The translations under genes were made by a program, and so were the position numbers. The notes under the pieces were generated by a model. It made no database searches, had not been told where the DNA came from, and was given only the letters and a program-made list of their open reading frames with translations. A stretch of DNA of 7,581 nt from a virus (taxonomy: Duplodnaviria > Heunggongvirae > Uroviricota > Caudoviricetes): the IMG/VR virus record IMGVR_UViG_2648501485_000016, positions 1-7,581 of that record; one strand, given 5' to 3'. Positions 1 to 6,519 of the stretch are shown in pieces (position 1 is the first letter of the stretch; every line of letters begins with the position of its first letter).

Positions 1-33
1 GCACTTTTTATATAAATCTATAATTATATAATT
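1..33 (-). promoter_or_regulatory. AT-rich conserved intergenic motif, copy C (promoter-like; strand uncertain)
   Basis: Plus strand 7-17 is TTTATATAAAT, followed by TATAAT at 19-24. The same core recurs at 1151-1160 and 6474-6484. It lies directly after the methylase stop codon (34-36). Truncated by the window edge. Confidence 0.4.
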
Positions 34-621
34 TTATGCCACTTGCCAGAGAGCATCATGCAACTGGATACCTCCATTGCACTGGTTGCCCCAGCCATGC
101 CAACCATCAGGTAAATCACCGCGAGCAAACAGCTCAATACGAGGAACATCACCTAACAGCCTTACCAGCTTGTCACGAACCACATCAGGCTTCCGAGAAT
201 GCTCCAGACGAGGCGATGTAAACGACTGAATGATCCCCGCATCAAGGCGGGTCGGCAATTTGCCTTTTACCGCAAACAAGCAATCTTCACTGTTTGCACG
301 AGTCATATGCCCCATCCCCATCACCAGCTTATCTGGTTGTCGGCTACCACATTTGTTCCATGTGAAGCCCTTCATGGTCATAAGCCTGAATCCCCATGCT
401 TTCACCACCAGCAACGCTTCTTCTGGCTGAGTCGGAACCCACCACATGGCCAACAAACACGATTCAGGATTAGCAAGCTGCCAGACAGGAATACGAGCAA
501 TATCCTCAGCTTTCATCGTTGGATACTTAAAACCAGCTCCACGATTCCCATCCTTACACTTATCTTTGTATTCCCAGGGGGGATCTGCATAAATCAGATT
601 AAACAATGCAATTGCCTCCAT
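34..621 (-). CDS. DNA N6-adenine methyltransferase, MT-A70 / phage Dam-like family (195 aa)
   Basis: The translation begins MEAIALFNLIYADPPWEY; DPPW is the catalytic motif IV of N6-adenine methyltransferases of the MT-A70 type. ATG at 621-619 is preceded by GGAGG about 10 nt upstream; stop TAA at 36-34. No adjacent restriction endonuclease ORF, so it appears to be an orphan methylase. Confidence 0.8.
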   Translation of the reverse strand: MEAIALFNLIYADPPWEYKDKCKDGNRGAGFKYPTMKAEDIARIPVWQLANPESCLLAMWWVPTQPEEALLVVKAWGFRLMTMKGFTWNKCGSRQPDKLVMGMGHMTRANSEDCLFAVKGKLPTRLDAGIIQSFTSPRLEHSRKPDVVRDKLVRLLGDVPRIELFARGDLPDGWHGWGNQCNGGIQLHDALWQVA

Positions 622-684: not shown

Positions 685-720
685 CAACGAAAAGGGCACT
701 AACCAGACTGATTAATGCCC
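685..720 (-). terminator. Candidate hairpin followed by a short U run (minus-strand transcript), between the tRNA and the methylase
   Basis: Minus-strand RNA: GGGCAUU / 13-nt loop / AGUGCCC, then CUUUUCGUUG. A 7-bp stem including one G-U pair; the loop is long and the U tract short, so this is weak. Confidence 0.25.
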
Positions 721-865
721 TTGCCTGTTGTGTGCCGGATATCGCCCGACAACGCTGTTTTGGTAACACGGCTACAGTTCCGTGCCGCTCCAGCTTTTAC
801 CCCTTTGCGGATAACAGGCCCTGCCTGTACTCACTAACCAACGGCTTCCCGAAATGTGCACCAGG

Positions 866-929: not shown

Positions 930-1005
930 TGGTGGCCCCTACCGGATTTGAACCGATGACCGTGCGATTATGAGTCGCCTGCTCTAACCACTAAGCTAAG
1001 GGGCC
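930..1005 (-). tRNA. tRNA with anticodon CAU, closest to the tRNA-Ile2 (lysidine, AUA-decoding) type; elongator Met not excluded
   Basis: The reverse complement of 930-1005 gives a 76-nt sequence: GGCCCCTTAGCTTAGTGGTTAGAGCAGGCGACTCATAATCGCACGGTCATCGGTTCAAATCCGGTAGGGGCCACCA. It has a 7-bp acceptor stem (GGCCCCT/AGGGGCC), a D-arm, an anticodon stem-loop with U33-CAU-A37, a T-arm with GGTTCAAATCC, and an encoded CCA end. The acceptor stem and anticodon arm match my recollection of E. coli ileX; the D and T arms differ. Confidence 0.85.
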
Positions 1006-1016
1006 ATATTTGATTT

Positions 1017-1097
1017 GTTTGTCTGGTGTGGCGCCGCGCACGAAAATCCCAGCCAATAAATTCAGGATTTTTGGGCGCGGCGGCATATCAGACAAAC
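1017..1097. repeat. 81-bp imperfect palindrome (33-bp arms, 15-bp spacer, GC-rich core) between the promoter-like motif and the tRNA
   Basis: The left arm at 1017-1049 (GTTTGTCTGGTGTGGCGCCGCGCACGAAAATCC) matches the reverse complement of the right arm at 1065-1097 (GTTTGTCTGATATGCCGCCGCGCCCAAAAATCC) at 28 of 33 positions. The spacer is CAGCCAATAAATTCA. Confidence 0.7.
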
Positions 1098-1140
1098 ATG
1101 GTTGATGCGTGCGCCCATGAGAAAAGCGCATAGAATGTTG

Positions 1141-1177
1141 TAACTATATATTTATATAATTATAGAAATATATATTA
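1141..1177 (-). promoter_or_regulatory. AT-rich conserved intergenic motif, copy B (promoter-like), after the spanin stop and upstream of the palindrome and tRNA
   Basis: Plus strand 1151-1160 is TTTATATAAT. The minus strand reads ...TTCTATAATTATATAAATATATAG..., containing TATAAT and TATAAATA. Confidence 0.4.
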
Positions 1178-1384
1178 CTTTCGGCAGTTGATTTCCCATG
1201 CCCTGTTATGAGCCAGAATATCTTTCTTTGTCTGGCGGTCCATAACATCGATGTCGTGATCAGTCAGGTAGATGGGCTTTACCCAATCACAGGCGGTATC
1301 AACCACCACCGGGACGCTTCCACGACTCCCGCAGCTCGCGATCAACATCGTCATCAGCCATATGGTTAACACTCTGCTGTACAT
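1175..1384 (-). CDS. Putative o-spanin (Rz1-like outer-membrane lipoprotein, 69 aa)
   Basis: N-terminal signal peptide with a lipobox (LIASC) in MYSRVLTIWLMTMLIASCGS..., and further Cys residues in the short mature part. The gene starts inside the i-spanin gene in a different frame and extends past its end (overlapped architecture). RBS GAGGTG lies about 5 nt before ATG 1384. Confidence 0.6.
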   Translation of the reverse strand: MYSRVLTIWLMTMLIASCGSRGSVPVVVDTACDWVKPIYLTDHDIDVMDRQTKKDILAHNRAWEINCRK

Positions 1385-2794: not shown

Positions 2795-2827
2795 AAAAAA
2801 AAAGCCCCGCCGAAAAAGGCAGGGCTT
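2795..2827 (-). terminator. Rho-independent terminator (minus-strand transcript), immediately upstream of the first lysis gene
   Basis: Minus-strand RNA: AAGCCCUGCC / UUUUUC loop / GGCGGGGCUU followed by 9 U. The stem is 8 GC-rich pairs (one G-U) plus 2 A-U pairs. On the plus strand there is a C-A mismatch and no T tract, so it is unidirectional. The U tract ends 3 nt before the holin RBS. Confidence 0.7.
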
Positions 2828-3010
2828 CATAAAGCAACAAATTACGCGGTAATCGCTTAACGCAGTTTTACTACGTTAAATGAAACACTACACCCAGTTA
2901 CCACCTAAAACAAGGTTTCCCCATAAAAAAACCTTCACAATGTGGTTAATCGATCGATAAAAAAACAATACTTAACTTTTGACCAACCGAACATCCCGAC
3001 CAGGACTTCC

Positions 3011-3111: not shown

Positions 3112-3471
3112 TTACCCGCTCTGAATATCTGAATACTGCTCGTAAGCGCATGGATTCTCACTACAGCTTATCCAACCACCCGGAGTTACCGAAACTGGCG
3201 GCGCGGCATATAGCTTACGGGTCTGAACACCTGCCCCCTGACATTTCTCTTCCTCAACAAACCATTCGAAAGCACATTCCCCGCAATCTTCCCATTCTCC
3301 CCATTCATCATATTCTGCATCCCACTGGCGATACTGATATGCCACCGGTTCTGCTTCCAGCAAGGCTAACGCTATTTCATAAGCCCGGCGCTCAATATTG
3401 TCTCGCACATCCAAGCGGCCTATGCGCTCTTTGATTTCTTTAATCAGTTCTTTGTCGGTAAAAGTGGTCAT
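3112..3471 (-). CDS. Hypothetical acidic protein with Trp/Glu-rich and Cys-containing segments (119 aa)
   Basis: RBS GAGGA 7 nt before ATG 3471, which overlaps the upstream TGA (ATGA). About 25 Asp+Glu against 12 Lys+Arg. Contains EWGEWEDCGECAFEWFVEEEKC. No recognisable domain. Confidence 0.6.
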   Translation of the reverse strand: MTTFTDKELIKEIKERIGRLDVRDNIERRAYEIALALLEAEPVAYQYRQWDAEYDEWGEWEDCGECAFEWFVEEEKCQGAGVQTRKLYAAPPVSVTPGGWISCSENPCAYEQYSDIQSG

Positions 3472-3677
3472 TTGTTAATCCTCAAAACTTTATGCCCGGG
3501 CGCAAAAGCACGCGTTTTGTCTTTGCTTATTCGCCAGCCATCCTTGCGCGCCTCTTTTGCACAGCCAGCCCATGACGTACCGATATACTCACCGAAGTCT
3601 GGCACTGGATATACACCTTCCGTACACTGGCGGCAGTCACAATAGAGATGCATGGTGTAACTTGCGGCAATAGCCAT
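3468..3677 (-). CDS. Hypothetical small Cys-rich protein (69 aa), possible zinc-binding
   Basis: Strong RBS AAGGAG 6 nt before ATG 3677. Contains HLYCDCRQC ... C. Stop TGA overlaps the next gene's ATG. Confidence 0.55.
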   Translation of the reverse strand: MAIAASYTMHLYCDCRQCTEGVYPVPDFGEYIGTSWAGCAKEARKDGWRISKDKTRAFAPGHKVLRINK

Positions 3678-3678
3678 A

Positions 3679-4308
3679 TCATTCTCCTTTGATGCGAATA
3701 CCAGCAGCGCGGATTGCAGCGATGACTTCAGAAACTTTGTATGCCATTACCGTTTGGTAATCCTCGTGAAAATCTGTTCGATGAAGCATGCTGCTACGTT
3801 CTGGGAGCGATATTTCCCGTGCTTCCAGTTCTGCAATGCGCTTCTCTGCGGATTCCAACGCCGCAACCAATTCGTCTACAGTTCCGGCAGCTTGCAGTGC
3901 GTAATCGGTAATAGCCATCTCATGATCAATTTCAGTACCGTTCTCATTCGTTGAGGTGATAGCAAAATAATCAGAGTCGATTTCGTTATCAGCTAAGTGG
4001 CGTAGCGTATCGGCAACAAGCCGGCCGTTTTCGATTAGCAGCTTCCCTACCGTAAGCGCAATATCCTCGTTCTCCTGGTCGCGGCGTTTGATGTATTGCT
4101 GGTTTCTTTCCCGTTCATCCAGTAGTGCCAGCACGGTTTCTGGTCCGGCCAGAAATTTGAAGGCGTTGAGCGCATCAATATCCACACCGTAATCTTTAAG
4201 TTCCTGTTCACTTAACAAATCATCATCAGCTGGCAACATTAACAGGCGTTCCATTGCTGGAATTGCACGTTCCGCCGCCTCACGCAGTGCCTGATAGTCA
4301 ATTGTCAT
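3679..4308 (-). CDS. Hypothetical strongly acidic protein (about 209 aa from ATG 4308)
   Basis: ATG 4308-4306 overlaps the upstream TGA (ATGA), with AAGGA 8 nt upstream. The ATG at 4317 directly abuts the Shine-Dalgarno sequence, so I prefer 4308. About 44 Asp+Glu against 23 Lys+Arg. No recognisable catalytic motif. Confidence 0.6.
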   Translation of the reverse strand: MTIDYQALREAAERAIPAMERLLMLPADDDLLSEQELKDYGVDIDALNAFKFLAGPETVLALLDERERNQQYIKRRDQENEDIALTVGKLLIENGRLVADTLRHLADNEIDSDYFAITSTNENGTEIDHEMAITDYALQAAGTVDELVAALESAEKRIAELEAREISLPERSSMLHRTDFHEDYQTVMAYKVSEVIAAIRAAGIRIKGE

Positions 4309-4949
4309 TCTCGCCATCCTTCACAGTTGTAATCACTACAGCCTTCAAAATCATATGGGCTGTACTGCCAGGTTATTTTTCCGCAATGCGGACAATTCCA
4401 ACGCACCTTCCCGCTTCGCGACTTCTTTCTTCTGTTCTGCTCTTTCAACCAGTCAGGCATGACCAAACCTGCGCCCTGAACCATTGTTCTGCGGTTAAAG
4501 TTATTGATATTGAACGTCCGGCGCTTTGCTGCATCAGCAATGGAAAATGGCAACCAAACTATTCCTGGTTCGTTTTTGTTGACGACGCTAAAGATGGTCG
4601 CTTTACTGAAGTCATCTGTTGGCAATCCACCGTGTTGAAGCCAGTAAACATCGTTGCCGTTCCAGCTACCTTTTTTGTAGGCCACATACTCAGTGCAATC
4701 TGACTCAATCAGGCTTTCTGTAGGGATGTACTGGCAATCAACGTGCCACACAGCCATTGCATCCACACTATCGGCACAAACAGGCTGATCGATATCTCGC
4801 CCACAATTCCAGGCTTTTTGGGCTTCTTCCAGCGTGTAAATATGAGCGCGATCGATATCAGAACTGTAACCATTGCCGTTATGGCAATGGAATGAGGCGT
4901 TATTACCCACAGTTTCACGCAAGCACATCATGTAAAAACGGTTACTCAC
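4305..4949 (-). CDS. Hypothetical Cys-rich protein with a C-terminal zinc-ribbon-like segment (about 214 aa from GTG 4949)
   Basis: GTG 4949-4947 is preceded by AGGGGG at a 6-nt spacing. The TTG at 4973 listed in the ORF track has no RBS. C-terminus reads ...WNCPHCGKITWQYSPYDFEGCSDYNCEGWRE. Confidence 0.55.
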   Translation of the reverse strand: MSNRFYMMCLRETVGNNASFHCHNGNGYSSDIDRAHIYTLEEAQKAWNCGRDIDQPVCADSVDAMAVWHVDCQYIPTESLIESDCTEYVAYKKGSWNGNDVYWLQHGGLPTDDFSKATIFSVVNKNEPGIVWLPFSIADAAKRRTFNINNFNRRTMVQGAGLVMPDWLKEQNRRKKSRSGKVRWNCPHCGKITWQYSPYDFEGCSDYNCEGWRE

Positions 4950-5625
4950 TGGTTGCCCCCTGAATACGCTCAAACTCGATTACCCACACCCAGGGATTAG
5001 CGTTCCAACTATCTTCGCCATAAATTGATTTCCATAGGCTACGGAAACCTGGGTAATGCTTATCGCCAATGAGGGTCGATTCTGTTGGTGCGCCCTCAGC
5101 CCTTGCATCGCATTCGCTGATATCGTTCAACCGCTCAACGCGCACGTTGGTAATTTCCAGAAGAATGCGCGATGCCCAGCGCGGCATGTGAATTGATGGA
5201 CACCACCCGCCATCAAATTTTTCATTCACAGTGTGAGGTTTCCAGTCGGCATCATCGGGTATCGACCACAAGCCATAATCCCCCGGTTTTTGCTCACAAC
5301 TGGCTCGATAAATCCTTGCTGCGTTCTTCTCATCGCCACGACAAAGGTTGTCGTTCCAGTCCACACTGCAACCATCCTCATTGCCTAATATCGCCCACGC
5401 TTCACGGACCCATATGCGATCACCAACGTTACCGAACGGGCATAAACTATGTTCAGGTGCATCCATAACGTGGGTATAGACACCATTGCGTTTCTTTGTC
5501 GGTTTACGGATAACCAGGCAGTTATCGGCCCTGACATTTTTTACAGGTCGGCGAGTCTGCGTCTTCCTGCCTTCGAGGATGGCCCTAACCATATCGTCAT
5601 TAAAAACAACACCACGTTCTTTCAT
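4942..5625 (-). CDS. ASCH-like (PUA-fold) domain protein with a C-terminal extension (227 aa)
   Basis: N-terminus MVRAILEGRKTQTRRP ... GDRIWVREAW fits the ASCH pattern (G-x-K-x-x-x-x-R, then GD-x-hydrophobic). RBS AAGGTGG 7 nt before ATG 5625, which overlaps the upstream TGA. Confidence 0.6.
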   Translation of the reverse strand: MKERGVVFNDDMVRAILEGRKTQTRRPVKNVRADNCLVIRKPTKKRNGVYTHVMDAPEHSLCPFGNVGDRIWVREAWAILGNEDGCSVDWNDNLCRGDEKNAARIYRASCEQKPGDYGLWSIPDDADWKPHTVNEKFDGGWCPSIHMPRWASRILLEITNVRVERLNDISECDARAEGAPTESTLIGDKHYPGFRSLWKSIYGEDSWNANPWVWVIEFERIQGATSE

Positions 5626-5813
5626 TTAGAAGCCACCTTGTTCAATTTCCGGCGACAAGACACGCAATCATCAGGACTCTCAAAAGTGTCTGGCTCACGG
5701 TAATCACCAAAATACATCCAACGGCCGCAAATGCTGGTTACTTCACCTTCATTAAAATAATGATGTTTATTCGCCTTCATTGGCCTGACCCATCCGGCAT
5801 TTTTCTTGCTCAC
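5622..5813 (-). CDS. Hypothetical small Cys-containing protein (about 63 aa from GTG 5813)
   Basis: GTG 5813-5811 overlaps the upstream TGA (GTGA) and is preceded by GGGAGGAG at a 5-nt spacing. The ORF-track ATG at 5876 has no usable RBS and would overlap the upstream gene by 67 nt. Contains C-x19-C-x2-C. Confidence 0.5.
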   Translation of the reverse strand: MSKKNAGWVRPMKANKHHYFNEGEVTSICGRWMYFGDYREPDTFESPDDCVSCRRKLNKVASK

Positions 5814-6453: not shown

Positions 6454-6473
6454 TGTCGAGGCGTCCTTATACA

Positions 6474-6500
6474 TTTATATAAATATATAATTCTATATAC
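6474..6500 (-). promoter_or_regulatory. AT-rich conserved intergenic motif, copy A (promoter-like), immediately upstream of the winged-helix gene
   Basis: Plus strand 6474-6484 is TTTATATAAAT and 6486-6491 is TATAAT. The minus strand reads GTATATAGAATTATATATTTATATAAATG. It sits between the hairpin at 6500-6519 and the first gene of the operon. Confidence 0.45.
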
Positions 6501-6519
6501 GGCGGGAGACATCCCGCCG
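6500..6519 (-). terminator. Perfect 8-bp GC-rich hairpin 11 nt after the stop of the upstream gene (terminator-like; no clean U tract)
   Basis: CGGCGGGA (6500-6507), loop GACA, TCCCGCCG (6512-6519). On the minus strand it is followed by UAUAUAGAAUU. Confidence 0.4.

What the first reader, a model, noticed from the sequence alone, without database searches (positions are those of the whole stretch)
1017..1097. 81-bp imperfect palindrome with a GC-rich core between the lysis cassette and the tRNA
Two 33-bp arms match at 28 of 33 positions around a 15-bp spacer. Three of the five mismatches would be G-U pairs only in a plus-strand RNA and C-A mismatches in the minus-strand RNA. Since all genes are on the minus strand, this argues for either a DNA-level protein-binding site (packaging, recombination or replication-related) or an antisense transcript, rather than a simple leader hairpin of the tRNA precursor. 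Its position just after the lysis genes is where cos or pac sites sit in many phages, but no terminase gene is visible in the window.
Basis: seen in the sequence. Interest (0 to 1): 0.55.

Follow-up and report, generated by a model that had tools for sequence, protein, structure and literature searches.

The report
Conserved strand-biased hairpin in a phage-plasmid
The 81-base palindrome is real, and its base pairing has been preserved by evolution in a family of 48-kb phage-plasmids; it is not a packaging site, a tRNA leader or a host repeat, and it most likely acts as a folded single strand at the junction between the lysis genes and the late genes.

Summary
The palindrome is confirmed: 28 of 33 arm positions pair around a 15-nt spacer, against at most 22 in shuffles.

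The window comes from a ~48-kb enterobacterial myovirus-type phage-plasmid, such as the E. coli ATCC 25922 plasmid or Yersinia phages vB_YpM_39/41/44. The hairpin (H2) occurs once per genome. It is the largest part of a ~140-nt non-coding module made of a conserved 16-mer, a short hairpin (H1) and H2.

Four sequence types keep this module. They show compensatory base changes, and in one type the lower stem has been completely replaced. The tRNA next to H2 is optional. The terminase is lambda-type, and its cos region lies about 6 kb away. No Rfam family matches, and the element is not a host repeat.

In every type, all H2 mismatches are A·C, C·C or C·U on the gene strand. On the + strand these become G·U, G·G or G·A. 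The fold therefore appears to be selected on the strand antisense to the genes. The surrounding context, a promoter-like array upstream and terminators downstream, lies on the gene strand instead.

The function is not established. I favour a countertranscript/leader RNA pair that gates entry into the late genes (0.33). The rivals are a sense-only leader element and an ssDNA hairpin.

The parts
1017..1097 (.). H2, the long imperfect stem-loop. Arms are 1017-1049 and 1065-1097, and the loop is 1050-1064. The apical stem motif CCRAAAAT/ATTTTCGG is conserved in all four sequence types.
   Evidence: relatives
1109..1131 (-). H1, a short GC-rich hairpin between the 16-mer and H2 (ATGCGC-loop-GCGCAC on the gene strand). 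A hairpin sits at this position in every type, with a different sequence in each.
1130..1145 (-). Conserved 16-mer AGTTACAACATTCTAT, read on the gene strand. Its first 13 nt are invariant in all types, and it lies 59-62 nt from the apical motif of H2. It occurs once on the plasmid.
1145..1180 (.). AT-rich array with TATA boxes every 8 bp. It is promoter- or operator-like, carries perfect TATAAT hexamers on both strands and has no -35. It is one of three copies in the window and eight on the plasmid, and it sits directly upstream of the module in three of the four types.
930..1005 (-). tRNA with anticodon CAT, annotated tRNA-Ile by PGAP. It is a variable insert 11 nt after H2 and is not a constant partner of the hairpin.
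692..722 (-). Intrinsic terminator upstream of the MT-A70 methylase and the late genes. It is the first terminator downstream of the module, and it is kept in the Salmonella type through compensatory changes.
723..830 (-). Highly conserved, structured non-coding stretch between the variable insert and the terminator.

Best explanation
H2 is the core of a single-copy non-coding module of about 140 nt: a 16-mer, the short hairpin H1 and the long hairpin H2. The module sits in the untranslated junction between the lysis cassette and the late genes of a ~48-kb phage-plasmid. Shown: its pairing is kept by selection, and it acts as a folded single strand rather than as a duplex binding site. Also shown: the strand whose fold is favoured is the window + strand, which is antisense to every gene. 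Inferred, and the mechanism I commit to: this is a countertranscript/leader pair of the kind seen with CopA/CopT or RNA-OUT/RNA-IN. The gene-strand leader that starts at the AT-rich array carries the complementary stem-loop. A + strand RNA stem-loop, whose stability is what selection maintains, pairs with that leader through the conserved loop and apical stem. This pairing sets how much transcript survives or continues past the conserved terminator (722->692) into the methylase, terminase and structural genes. That would keep the late genes silent in the plasmid state. The existence of a + strand RNA has not been shown.
For: Structure under selection. There are 6-7 pairs with changes on both sides, 0 of 500 shuffles reach the observed covariation score, and pairing collapses when the partners are slid. 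The L190/L089 type has a wholly different lower stem that still pairs at 22 of 24 positions, and the covariance model finds it at E about 1e-6. H2 is invariant in nearly all of the ~48-kb E. coli-type plasmids, phages and contigs I read, while H1 and the flanks vary.

Strand bias. All 21 type-by-position mismatch states are A.C, C.C or C.U on the gene strand, which is G.U, G.G or G.A on the + strand. There are 0 G.U cells of 198 on the gene strand against 8 on the + strand. L008 is a G.U intermediate on the + strand between C-G (L002) and U-A (L003). The + strand fold is 3-16 kcal/mol more stable in all 8 variants, and also with DNA parameters. The bias runs against the G>C skew of the gene strand in the window as a whole.

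Context. The element is single copy on the plasmid. A promoter-like AT-rich array lies directly upstream, and a conserved terminator lies downstream before the late genes. Conserved loop and apical-stem sequence is what loop-loop recognition would need.
Against: No sigma-70-like promoter and no terminator for a + strand RNA were found next to H2 in any type. The sequence on the + strand 5' side of H2 differs between types: tRNA antisense in E. coli, other inserts elsewhere. In the Salmonella and L225 types a terminator-like hairpin on the antisense strand lies between the next AT-rich array and H2. H1 shows no strand bias. All recognisable signals are on the gene strand: the array, the fixed 59-62 nt spacing and the downstream terminators. 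No expression data were available.
Confidence: 0.33

Rival explanations
1. A sense-only cis-acting leader RNA. The gene-strand transcript from the AT-rich array, or read-through from the lysis genes, folds into H1 and H2. This structure either makes RNA polymerase resistant to the downstream terminators, as the HK022 put RNA does, or serves as an RNase III-type processing or stability signal that separates the lysis mRNA from the tRNA and late leader, as in T7 processing sites or lambda sib.
For: A gene-strand RNA across H2 is almost certain, because there is no terminator after Rz1 and a promoter-like array lies upstream. The module has two hairpins just downstream of the likely start, at a fixed distance. 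In every type an intrinsic terminator follows 0.3-0.9 kb downstream, directly in front of essential lytic genes, and the lysis and late operons are punctuated by strong terminators. No protein antiterminator was recognisable. HK022 put is also a promoter-proximal two-stem RNA (PMC9378689). The stem is broken into segments of about 8-10 bp by internal loops, as in RNase III processing sites (the comparison is from my own knowledge).
Against: An RNA selected for pairing on the gene strand should tolerate G.U and purge A.C. Here the gene strand has 0 G.U, and all its mismatches are the most destabilising kinds. The module is twice the size of put and has no sequence similarity that I could test. 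H2 is absent upstream of the other strong terminator at 2828->2801.
Confidence: 0.25
2. A single-stranded DNA hairpin on the + strand, used during lytic or rolling-circle replication. It could be a priming or primosome-assembly signal, or part of a lytic origin together with the neighbouring AT-rich, easily melted array.
For: The strand bias is equally expected for a DNA hairpin, because G.T, G.G and G.A are the most stable DNA mismatches. With DNA parameters the + strand folds at -33.8 kcal/mol against -25.3 for the - strand. The element is single copy and lies next to an AT-rich array. No lytic replication origin is known for this family.
Against: H2 lies 19 kb from repA. The G>C and T>A skew of the gene strand suggests that the gene strand, not the + strand, is the one more often single-stranded (inference). 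No HUH Rep or dedicated primase-helicase was found. The AT-rich array occurs at eight sites, so it is not origin-specific.
Confidence: 0.15
3. A duplex-DNA or cruciform site for a protein: cos or pac for the terminase, a recombination site, or a partition site.
For: It is a long dyad with a conserved inner motif (CCRAAAATCC N15 GGATTTTCGG) in most types. Several ParB-domain genes lie downstream.
Against: TerL is lambda GpA-type with TerS beside it, 6-7 kb away. The phage records begin in the gap upstream of those genes. The lower stem changed completely in sequence but still pairs. A duplex or cruciform site predicts no strand bias in mismatch type. The parA/parG-like locus and its AT-rich arrays are elsewhere.
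Confidence: 0.05
4. A passive palindromic insertion (MITE, REP or ERIC-like, or an IS scar) with no function.
For: It is an intergenic imperfect palindrome next to a region that accepts insertions, such as the tRNA and other inserts.
Against: There is one copy per plasmid. It is found in 70 of 5426 complete E. coli genomes, 70 of 71 places being on the ~48-kb plasmid, and there is no chromosomal family. It shows compensatory changes and a conserved position relative to the 16-mer in four diverged types.
Confidence: 0.03

Closest known systems
Countertranscript stem-loops of plasmids and transposons (CopA/CopT of R1, RNA-OUT/RNA-IN of IS10)
   Same: Both are long imperfect stem-loops with bulges, encoded opposite a leader. 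Both strands can fold, and it is the regulator strand whose stability is selected. The loop and upper stem are conserved. The comparison is from my own knowledge; the asymmetry itself is shown.
   Different: No antisense promoter or U-tail terminator is visible. The element lies in a phage late-gene junction rather than upstream of a rep or transposase gene. A separate conserved 16-mer and a second hairpin belong to it.
HK022 put RNA (RNA-only processive antitermination)
   Same: Both are promoter-proximal elements with two stem-loops and bulges, lie upstream of terminators that must be read through, and have no dedicated protein factor in sight (PMC9378689).
   Different: put is about 70 nt and acts on the gene strand. 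This module is about 140 nt, could not be shown to be related in sequence, and its mismatch pattern disfavours the gene strand.
RNase III processing and retroregulation hairpins (T7 R sites, lambda sib)
   Same: Both are long interrupted stems placed between cistrons of a long phage transcript, here just after the lysis genes.
   Different: Cleavage was not tested. Those sites work on the mRNA strand, whereas this element pairs best on the opposite strand.
Lambda-type cos site
   Same: It is an intergenic element downstream of the lysis genes in a phage with a GpA-type terminase.
   Different: It lies about 6 kb from the terminase genes, and the phage genome records start elsewhere. It also shows covariation and a strand bias.
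P1/P7 c4 antisense RNA (Rfam C4)
   Same: Both are small structured regulatory RNAs of a phage-plasmid.
   Different: The plasmid has a genuine C4/isrK locus elsewhere, at L005 17552-17737. H2 matches no Rfam family.

Membership tests
lambda-type cos / pac packaging site | Lies next to the terminase small-subunit gene | tested here: not met
   TerS (phrog_57) and GpA-type TerL are at L005 36621-39034, and H2 is at 29600-29682.
lambda-type cos / pac packaging site | Virion DNA ends map to the site | tested here: inconclusive
   The three vB_YpM records start in the 558-nt gap upstream of the terminase genes, about 6 kb from H2. However, the records are marked circular and no read data were available.
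Host intergenic repeat (REP/BIME, ERIC, MITE) | Many dispersed copies in host chromosomes | tested here: not met
   There are 71 places in 70 of 5426 E. coli genomes, 70 of them on the ~48-kb plasmid. The plasmid carries one copy.
Intrinsic (Rho-independent) terminator | GC-rich stem directly followed by a U-tract | tested here: not met
   The terminator scan does not list it on either strand. The flanks read AAATCAAATAT on the - strand and ATGGTTGATGC on the + strand.
tRNA precursor leader hairpin | Constant association with the tRNA | tested here: not met
   There is no tRNA in L002, L003, L008/L226, L089, L190 or L297-L299, and in L225 the tRNA is about 320 nt away.
Any Rfam family (including C4, GcvB-like and miRNA-like hits) | Score at or above the family's gathering threshold | tested here: not met
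   The only hit at H2 is mir-249 at 30.7 bits against a threshold of 70. Nothing matched at H2 on the whole plasmid or in relatives.
HK022 put-type antiterminator RNA | Two stem-loops just downstream of a promoter and upstream of terminators | tested here: inconclusive
   The architecture is similar, but the promoter is only consensus-like and lacks a -35. The size is twice that of put, and the pairing bias points to the other strand.
HK022 put-type antiterminator RNA | Terminator read-through in cis; dependence on the RNAP beta' zinc-binding domain | not testable with these tools
   This needs reporter fusions and rpoC mutants.
Countertranscript (cis-antisense) control RNA | Fold selected on the strand opposite the target leader | tested here: met
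   There are 0 G.U cells on the gene strand against 8 on the + strand, and all other mismatches are G-type on the + strand.
Countertranscript (cis-antisense) control RNA | Own promoter and defined 3' end on the antisense strand | tested here: not met
   No consensus promoter or terminator was found, and the flank is not conserved. Consensus scans are weak evidence: only 1 site was found in the whole window.
Duplex operator for a dimeric protein | Half-site sequence conserved, with no need for long-range pairing | tested here: not met
   The lower 15-24 bp of the stem differ completely between the E. coli and L190 types yet still pair. Only the apical 8-10 bp are conserved.
Integron attC-like folded site | RYYYAAC at the 5' end and GTTRRRY at the 3' end, with an integron integrase nearby | tested here: not met
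   The ends read GTTTGTC...GACAAAC, which is the inverse arrangement. No integrase of that kind is on the plasmid. The attC definition is from my own knowledge.

The most novel reading that the evidence does not exclude
The module is a previously undescribed switch that insulates the late genes of a phage-plasmid during plasmid life. It would be either a countertranscript acting on the late leader or an RNA-only antiterminator unrelated to put. It would be read together with the eight dispersed AT-rich arrays that also flank the partition genes.
Probability: 0.2. Interest if true: 0.65.

Novelty: new variant of a known kind. Interest (0 to 1): 0.45.

Why it matters
Phage-plasmids must keep about 25 kb of lysis and structural genes silent while they replicate as plasmids. 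How they do so is understood for only a few models (P1, N15). This family is common: it is present in about 1.3% of complete E. coli genomes, including the reference strain ATCC 25922. Its late region is punctuated by strong terminators, yet no antiterminator gene can be recognised. A conserved, single-copy, strand-biased structured element at the entry to the late genes is a concrete and easily testable candidate for that control. It is also a candidate new RNA family. If it proves to be only a processing hairpin, the finding is ordinary.

Tried and rejected
1. cos/pac site: rejected on the position of the terminase genes and the start of the phage records.

2. Host repeat: rejected.

3. Terminator on either strand: there is no U-tract.

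4. Small ORF across H1/H2 (991-1131, 46 aa): the reading frame is not kept in the Salmonella type, judged by reading.

5. Loop or 16-mer complementarity to another site on the plasmid: nothing above chance.

6. Link to the lysis cassette or to the methylase: 80 IMG/VR loci with a holin at least 80% identical and about 70 loci with a ~78% identical methylase lack the hairpin. More distant methylase plasmids are unrelated lambdoid phages.

8. The metagenome hit L194 was a chance match in a Bacteroidetes-like context.

9. Mutational bias as the cause of the strand asymmetry: the gene strand is G- and T-rich overall, which is the opposite direction.

10. G-avoidance of the gene-strand RNA: the module as a whole is C>G, but the H2 loops are G-rich and H1 shows no bias, so this remains an ad hoc rescue.

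11. Literature: no paper holds the 16-mer or the apical sequence in a relevant context, none mentions the Yersinia phages, and pSLy3 is a different group (SSU5 supergroup).

12. An attC-like site and the chromosomal parS half-sites (TGTTT...AAACA) were considered and dropped, on motif orientation and on spacing.

Full report
**Observation.** The repeat finder gives arms 1016-1049 and 1065-1098 (34 nt, 85% complementary) separated by 15 nt. With 33-nt arms, 28 of 33 positions pair. In 40 dinucleotide-preserving shuffles of the window, the best comparable inverted repeat had 19-22 matches. The + strand folds at -53.5 kcal/mol (z -9.7) and the - strand at -40.3 (z -5.9) as RNA. With DNA parameters the values are -33.8 and -25.3. 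The other two are C.C and C.U.

**What the window is.** The window is nearly identical to circular, non-mobilizable plasmids of ~47-50 kb found in 70 of 5426 complete E. coli genomes. These include E. coli ATCC 25922, plus E. fergusonii, E. albertii and one Klebsiella aerogenes. It also matches the Yersinia phages vB_YpM_39/41/44. The reference plasmid pGMI14-004_3 (L005) carries repA and parA together with a full myovirus gene set, so it is a phage-plasmid. All genes from the early operon to the tail genes lie on one strand, the window - strand. The order is early genes, terminator, two holins, endolysin, Rz/Rz1, AT-rich array, palindrome, tRNA, about 300 nt of non-coding sequence, terminator, MT-A70 methylase, ParB-domain genes, TerS/TerL, and then the head and tail genes.

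**Not a packaging site, a repeat, a terminator or a known RNA.**
- TerL is lambda GpA-type and TerS lies beside it, 6-7 kb downstream of the palindrome.
- All three Yersinia phage records begin inside the 558-nt intergenic gap upstream of those genes.
- The palindrome occurs once on the plasmid. In E. coli it is found only on this element, at 71 places of which 70 are on plasmids.
- Neither strand has a U-tract after the stem.
- No Rfam family reaches threshold at the site. The plasmid's genuine C4/isrK and ryfA RNAs lie elsewhere.

**It is part of a larger conserved module.** Relatives were found by BLAST, by pattern scans of IMG/VR and metagenomes, and with a covariance model. They fall into four sequence types:
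- the E. coli type;
- a Salmonella type (L002, L003, L008, L187);
- L225;
- the L190/L089/L297/L299 type.

All four share, on the gene strand, the 16-mer AGTTACAACATTCTAT, then a short hairpin H1 whose sequence differs between types, then the long hairpin H2. The distance from the 16-mer to the apical motif of H2 (CCRAAAAT...ATTTTCGG) is 59-62 nt in every type.

In the first three types the module follows an AT-rich array directly after the lysis genes. Next comes a variable insert, then a highly conserved stretch with an intrinsic terminator, and then the methylase. In the L190 type the module follows a 180-aa ORF and precedes a terminator in front of the holin. The tRNA is 11 nt from H2 in the E. 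coli type, about 320 nt away in L225, and absent in the others.

**The pairing is selected.** Between the E. coli, Salmonella and L225 types, 6-7 stem pairs change on both sides. None of 500 shuffles reaches the observed covariation score or percentage paired, and pairing collapses when partners are slid by 1-3 columns. The L190 type has 24-nt arms whose lower 15 bp share nothing with the E. coli type, yet 22 of 24 positions pair. Within the E. coli type H2 is invariant except in the ECOR39 plasmid, while H1 and the flanks vary. A duplex-DNA binding site would conserve sequence, not long-range pairing.

**Strand bias.** In all eight variants, every non-Watson-Crick position of H2 is A.C, C.C or C.U on the gene strand. 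On the + strand these are G.U, G.G or G.A, the least disruptive mismatches. On the six-row alignment the gene strand has 0 G.U cells of 198 and the + strand has 8. L008 is a + strand G.U intermediate between C-G (L002) and U-A (L003). There are 21 type-by-position mismatch states. Counting them conservatively as 12-15 independent events, a two-sided sign test gives about 5e-4 to 6e-5 (my arithmetic). The + strand fold is more stable in every variant. The bias is not a general skew, because the gene strand of the window is G>C and T>A. H1 shows no such bias. A cruciform or duplex site predicts no bias. A gene-strand RNA selected for pairing predicts the opposite bias.

**Context points the other way.** Everything recognisable is on the gene strand: the AT-rich array upstream, the fixed spacing, and terminators 0.3-0.9 kb downstream in front of essential lytic genes. 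No consensus promoter or terminator for a + strand RNA was found. The + strand 5' flank of H2 is not conserved between types. Consensus scans are weak evidence, however, since they found only one promoter-like site in the whole window.

**Mechanism.** The fold acts as a single strand, and selection sees it on the + strand. I therefore commit, at 0.33, to a countertranscript/leader pair that gates transcription or RNA survival into the late genes. The rivals are:
- a sense-only leader element, either put-like antitermination or RNase III-type processing (0.25);
- a + strand ssDNA hairpin used in lytic replication (0.15);
- a duplex site, including cos or pac (0.05);
- a passive repeat (0.03).

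The remaining probability is unassigned. The steps that are shown are the conservation, the covariation, the single copy, the module architecture, the strand bias, and the exclusion of cos, repeat, terminator and tRNA-leader readings. The existence of a + strand RNA and any effect on late genes are inferred.

**Comparison with known systems.** The element works most like plasmid or transposon countertranscript stem-loops, or like put-type or RNase III-type phage leader hairpins. It meets the membership criteria of none of them (see the membership table). No paper in the searchable library holds its sequence.

Noticed in passing
window 9-44, 1145-1180, 6468-6503; L005 ~14030, 18870, 19580, 19650, 23410, 24625, 29525, 30660: AT-rich arrays with TATA boxes every 8 bp lie at eight intergenic sites of the plasmid. 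Three of them are around parA and the 82-aa gene after it. They carry perfect TATAAT hexamers on both strands and no -35. They could be dispersed operator or centromere-like sites that tie partition to phage promoters, as reported for N15. The N15 comparison is from my own knowledge and was not tested.
   Followed up: partly
L005 14031-14157, 23412-23538, 30662-30788 (the last begins at window 9-44): Three copies (83-100% identical) of one 127-nt unit, made of an AT-rich array plus a 90-nt leader with Shine-Dalgarno sequence, precede three different genes.
   Followed up: partly
window 690-830, - strand: This non-coding stretch is about 95% identical between the E. coli and Salmonella types, although their methylase is only ~76% identical. 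It ends in the terminator at 722->692, which is kept by compensatory changes. The whole 686-929 region folds with z -4.0. It may be an sRNA or a leader element.
   Followed up: partly
window 2801-2828, - strand: A strong intrinsic terminator (11-bp stem, 9 U) lies only about 20 nt before the holin start codon. Lysis gene expression must therefore depend on read-through, yet no antiterminator gene is recognisable.
   Followed up: partly
window 930-1005, - strand: The tRNA with anticodon CAT is called Met by ARAGORN but tRNA-Ile by PGAP, which implies a lysidine-type tRNA. It is 93% identical to the tRNA-Ile of phage P7, and the D6 match extends 12 nt beyond the tRNA.
   Followed up: no
window 1175-1384 and 1299-1577, - strand: These are overlapping spanin genes. 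The 69-aa ORF has a lipobox-like LIASC and overlaps the 3' end of the 92-aa Rz-like ORF.
   Followed up: no
L190 2010-2190 and phiKO2 NC_005857 50633-50810: A non-coding stretch of about 180 nt just upstream of a terminator is shared between the L190-type phage-plasmid, the N15-like phage phiKO2 and Edwardsiella phage EPP-1. It shows what look like compensatory differences. It has no Rfam match.
   Followed up: partly
L190 2980-5039: About 2 kb of sequence has no ORF of 60 aa or more on the gene strand, in the middle of an otherwise tightly packed operon.
   Followed up: no
L005 10480-10600: A terminator is followed by a second long hairpin of about 90 nt (CTTGCGACATCCACGGAAAACCAAC...GTTGGTTTTCCGTGGACGCAAG) just upstream of repA. 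The H2 covariance model hit it weakly at E 0.11. It is probably a replication-control structure.
   Followed up: no
L005 17552-17737 and 18087-18385: A P1 immI-like C4 antisense RNA with an isrK-like partner lies next to the ORF6N/Rha genes, and there is also a ryfA RNA. The L190 type carries C4/isrK as well.
   Followed up: no
window 3400-5650: The accessory genes here, including Ea22-like and DUF551-like genes, are 95-98% identical to P1, P7, RCS47, SJ46 and Stx-converting phages. The region is a mosaic exchange zone.
   Followed up: no
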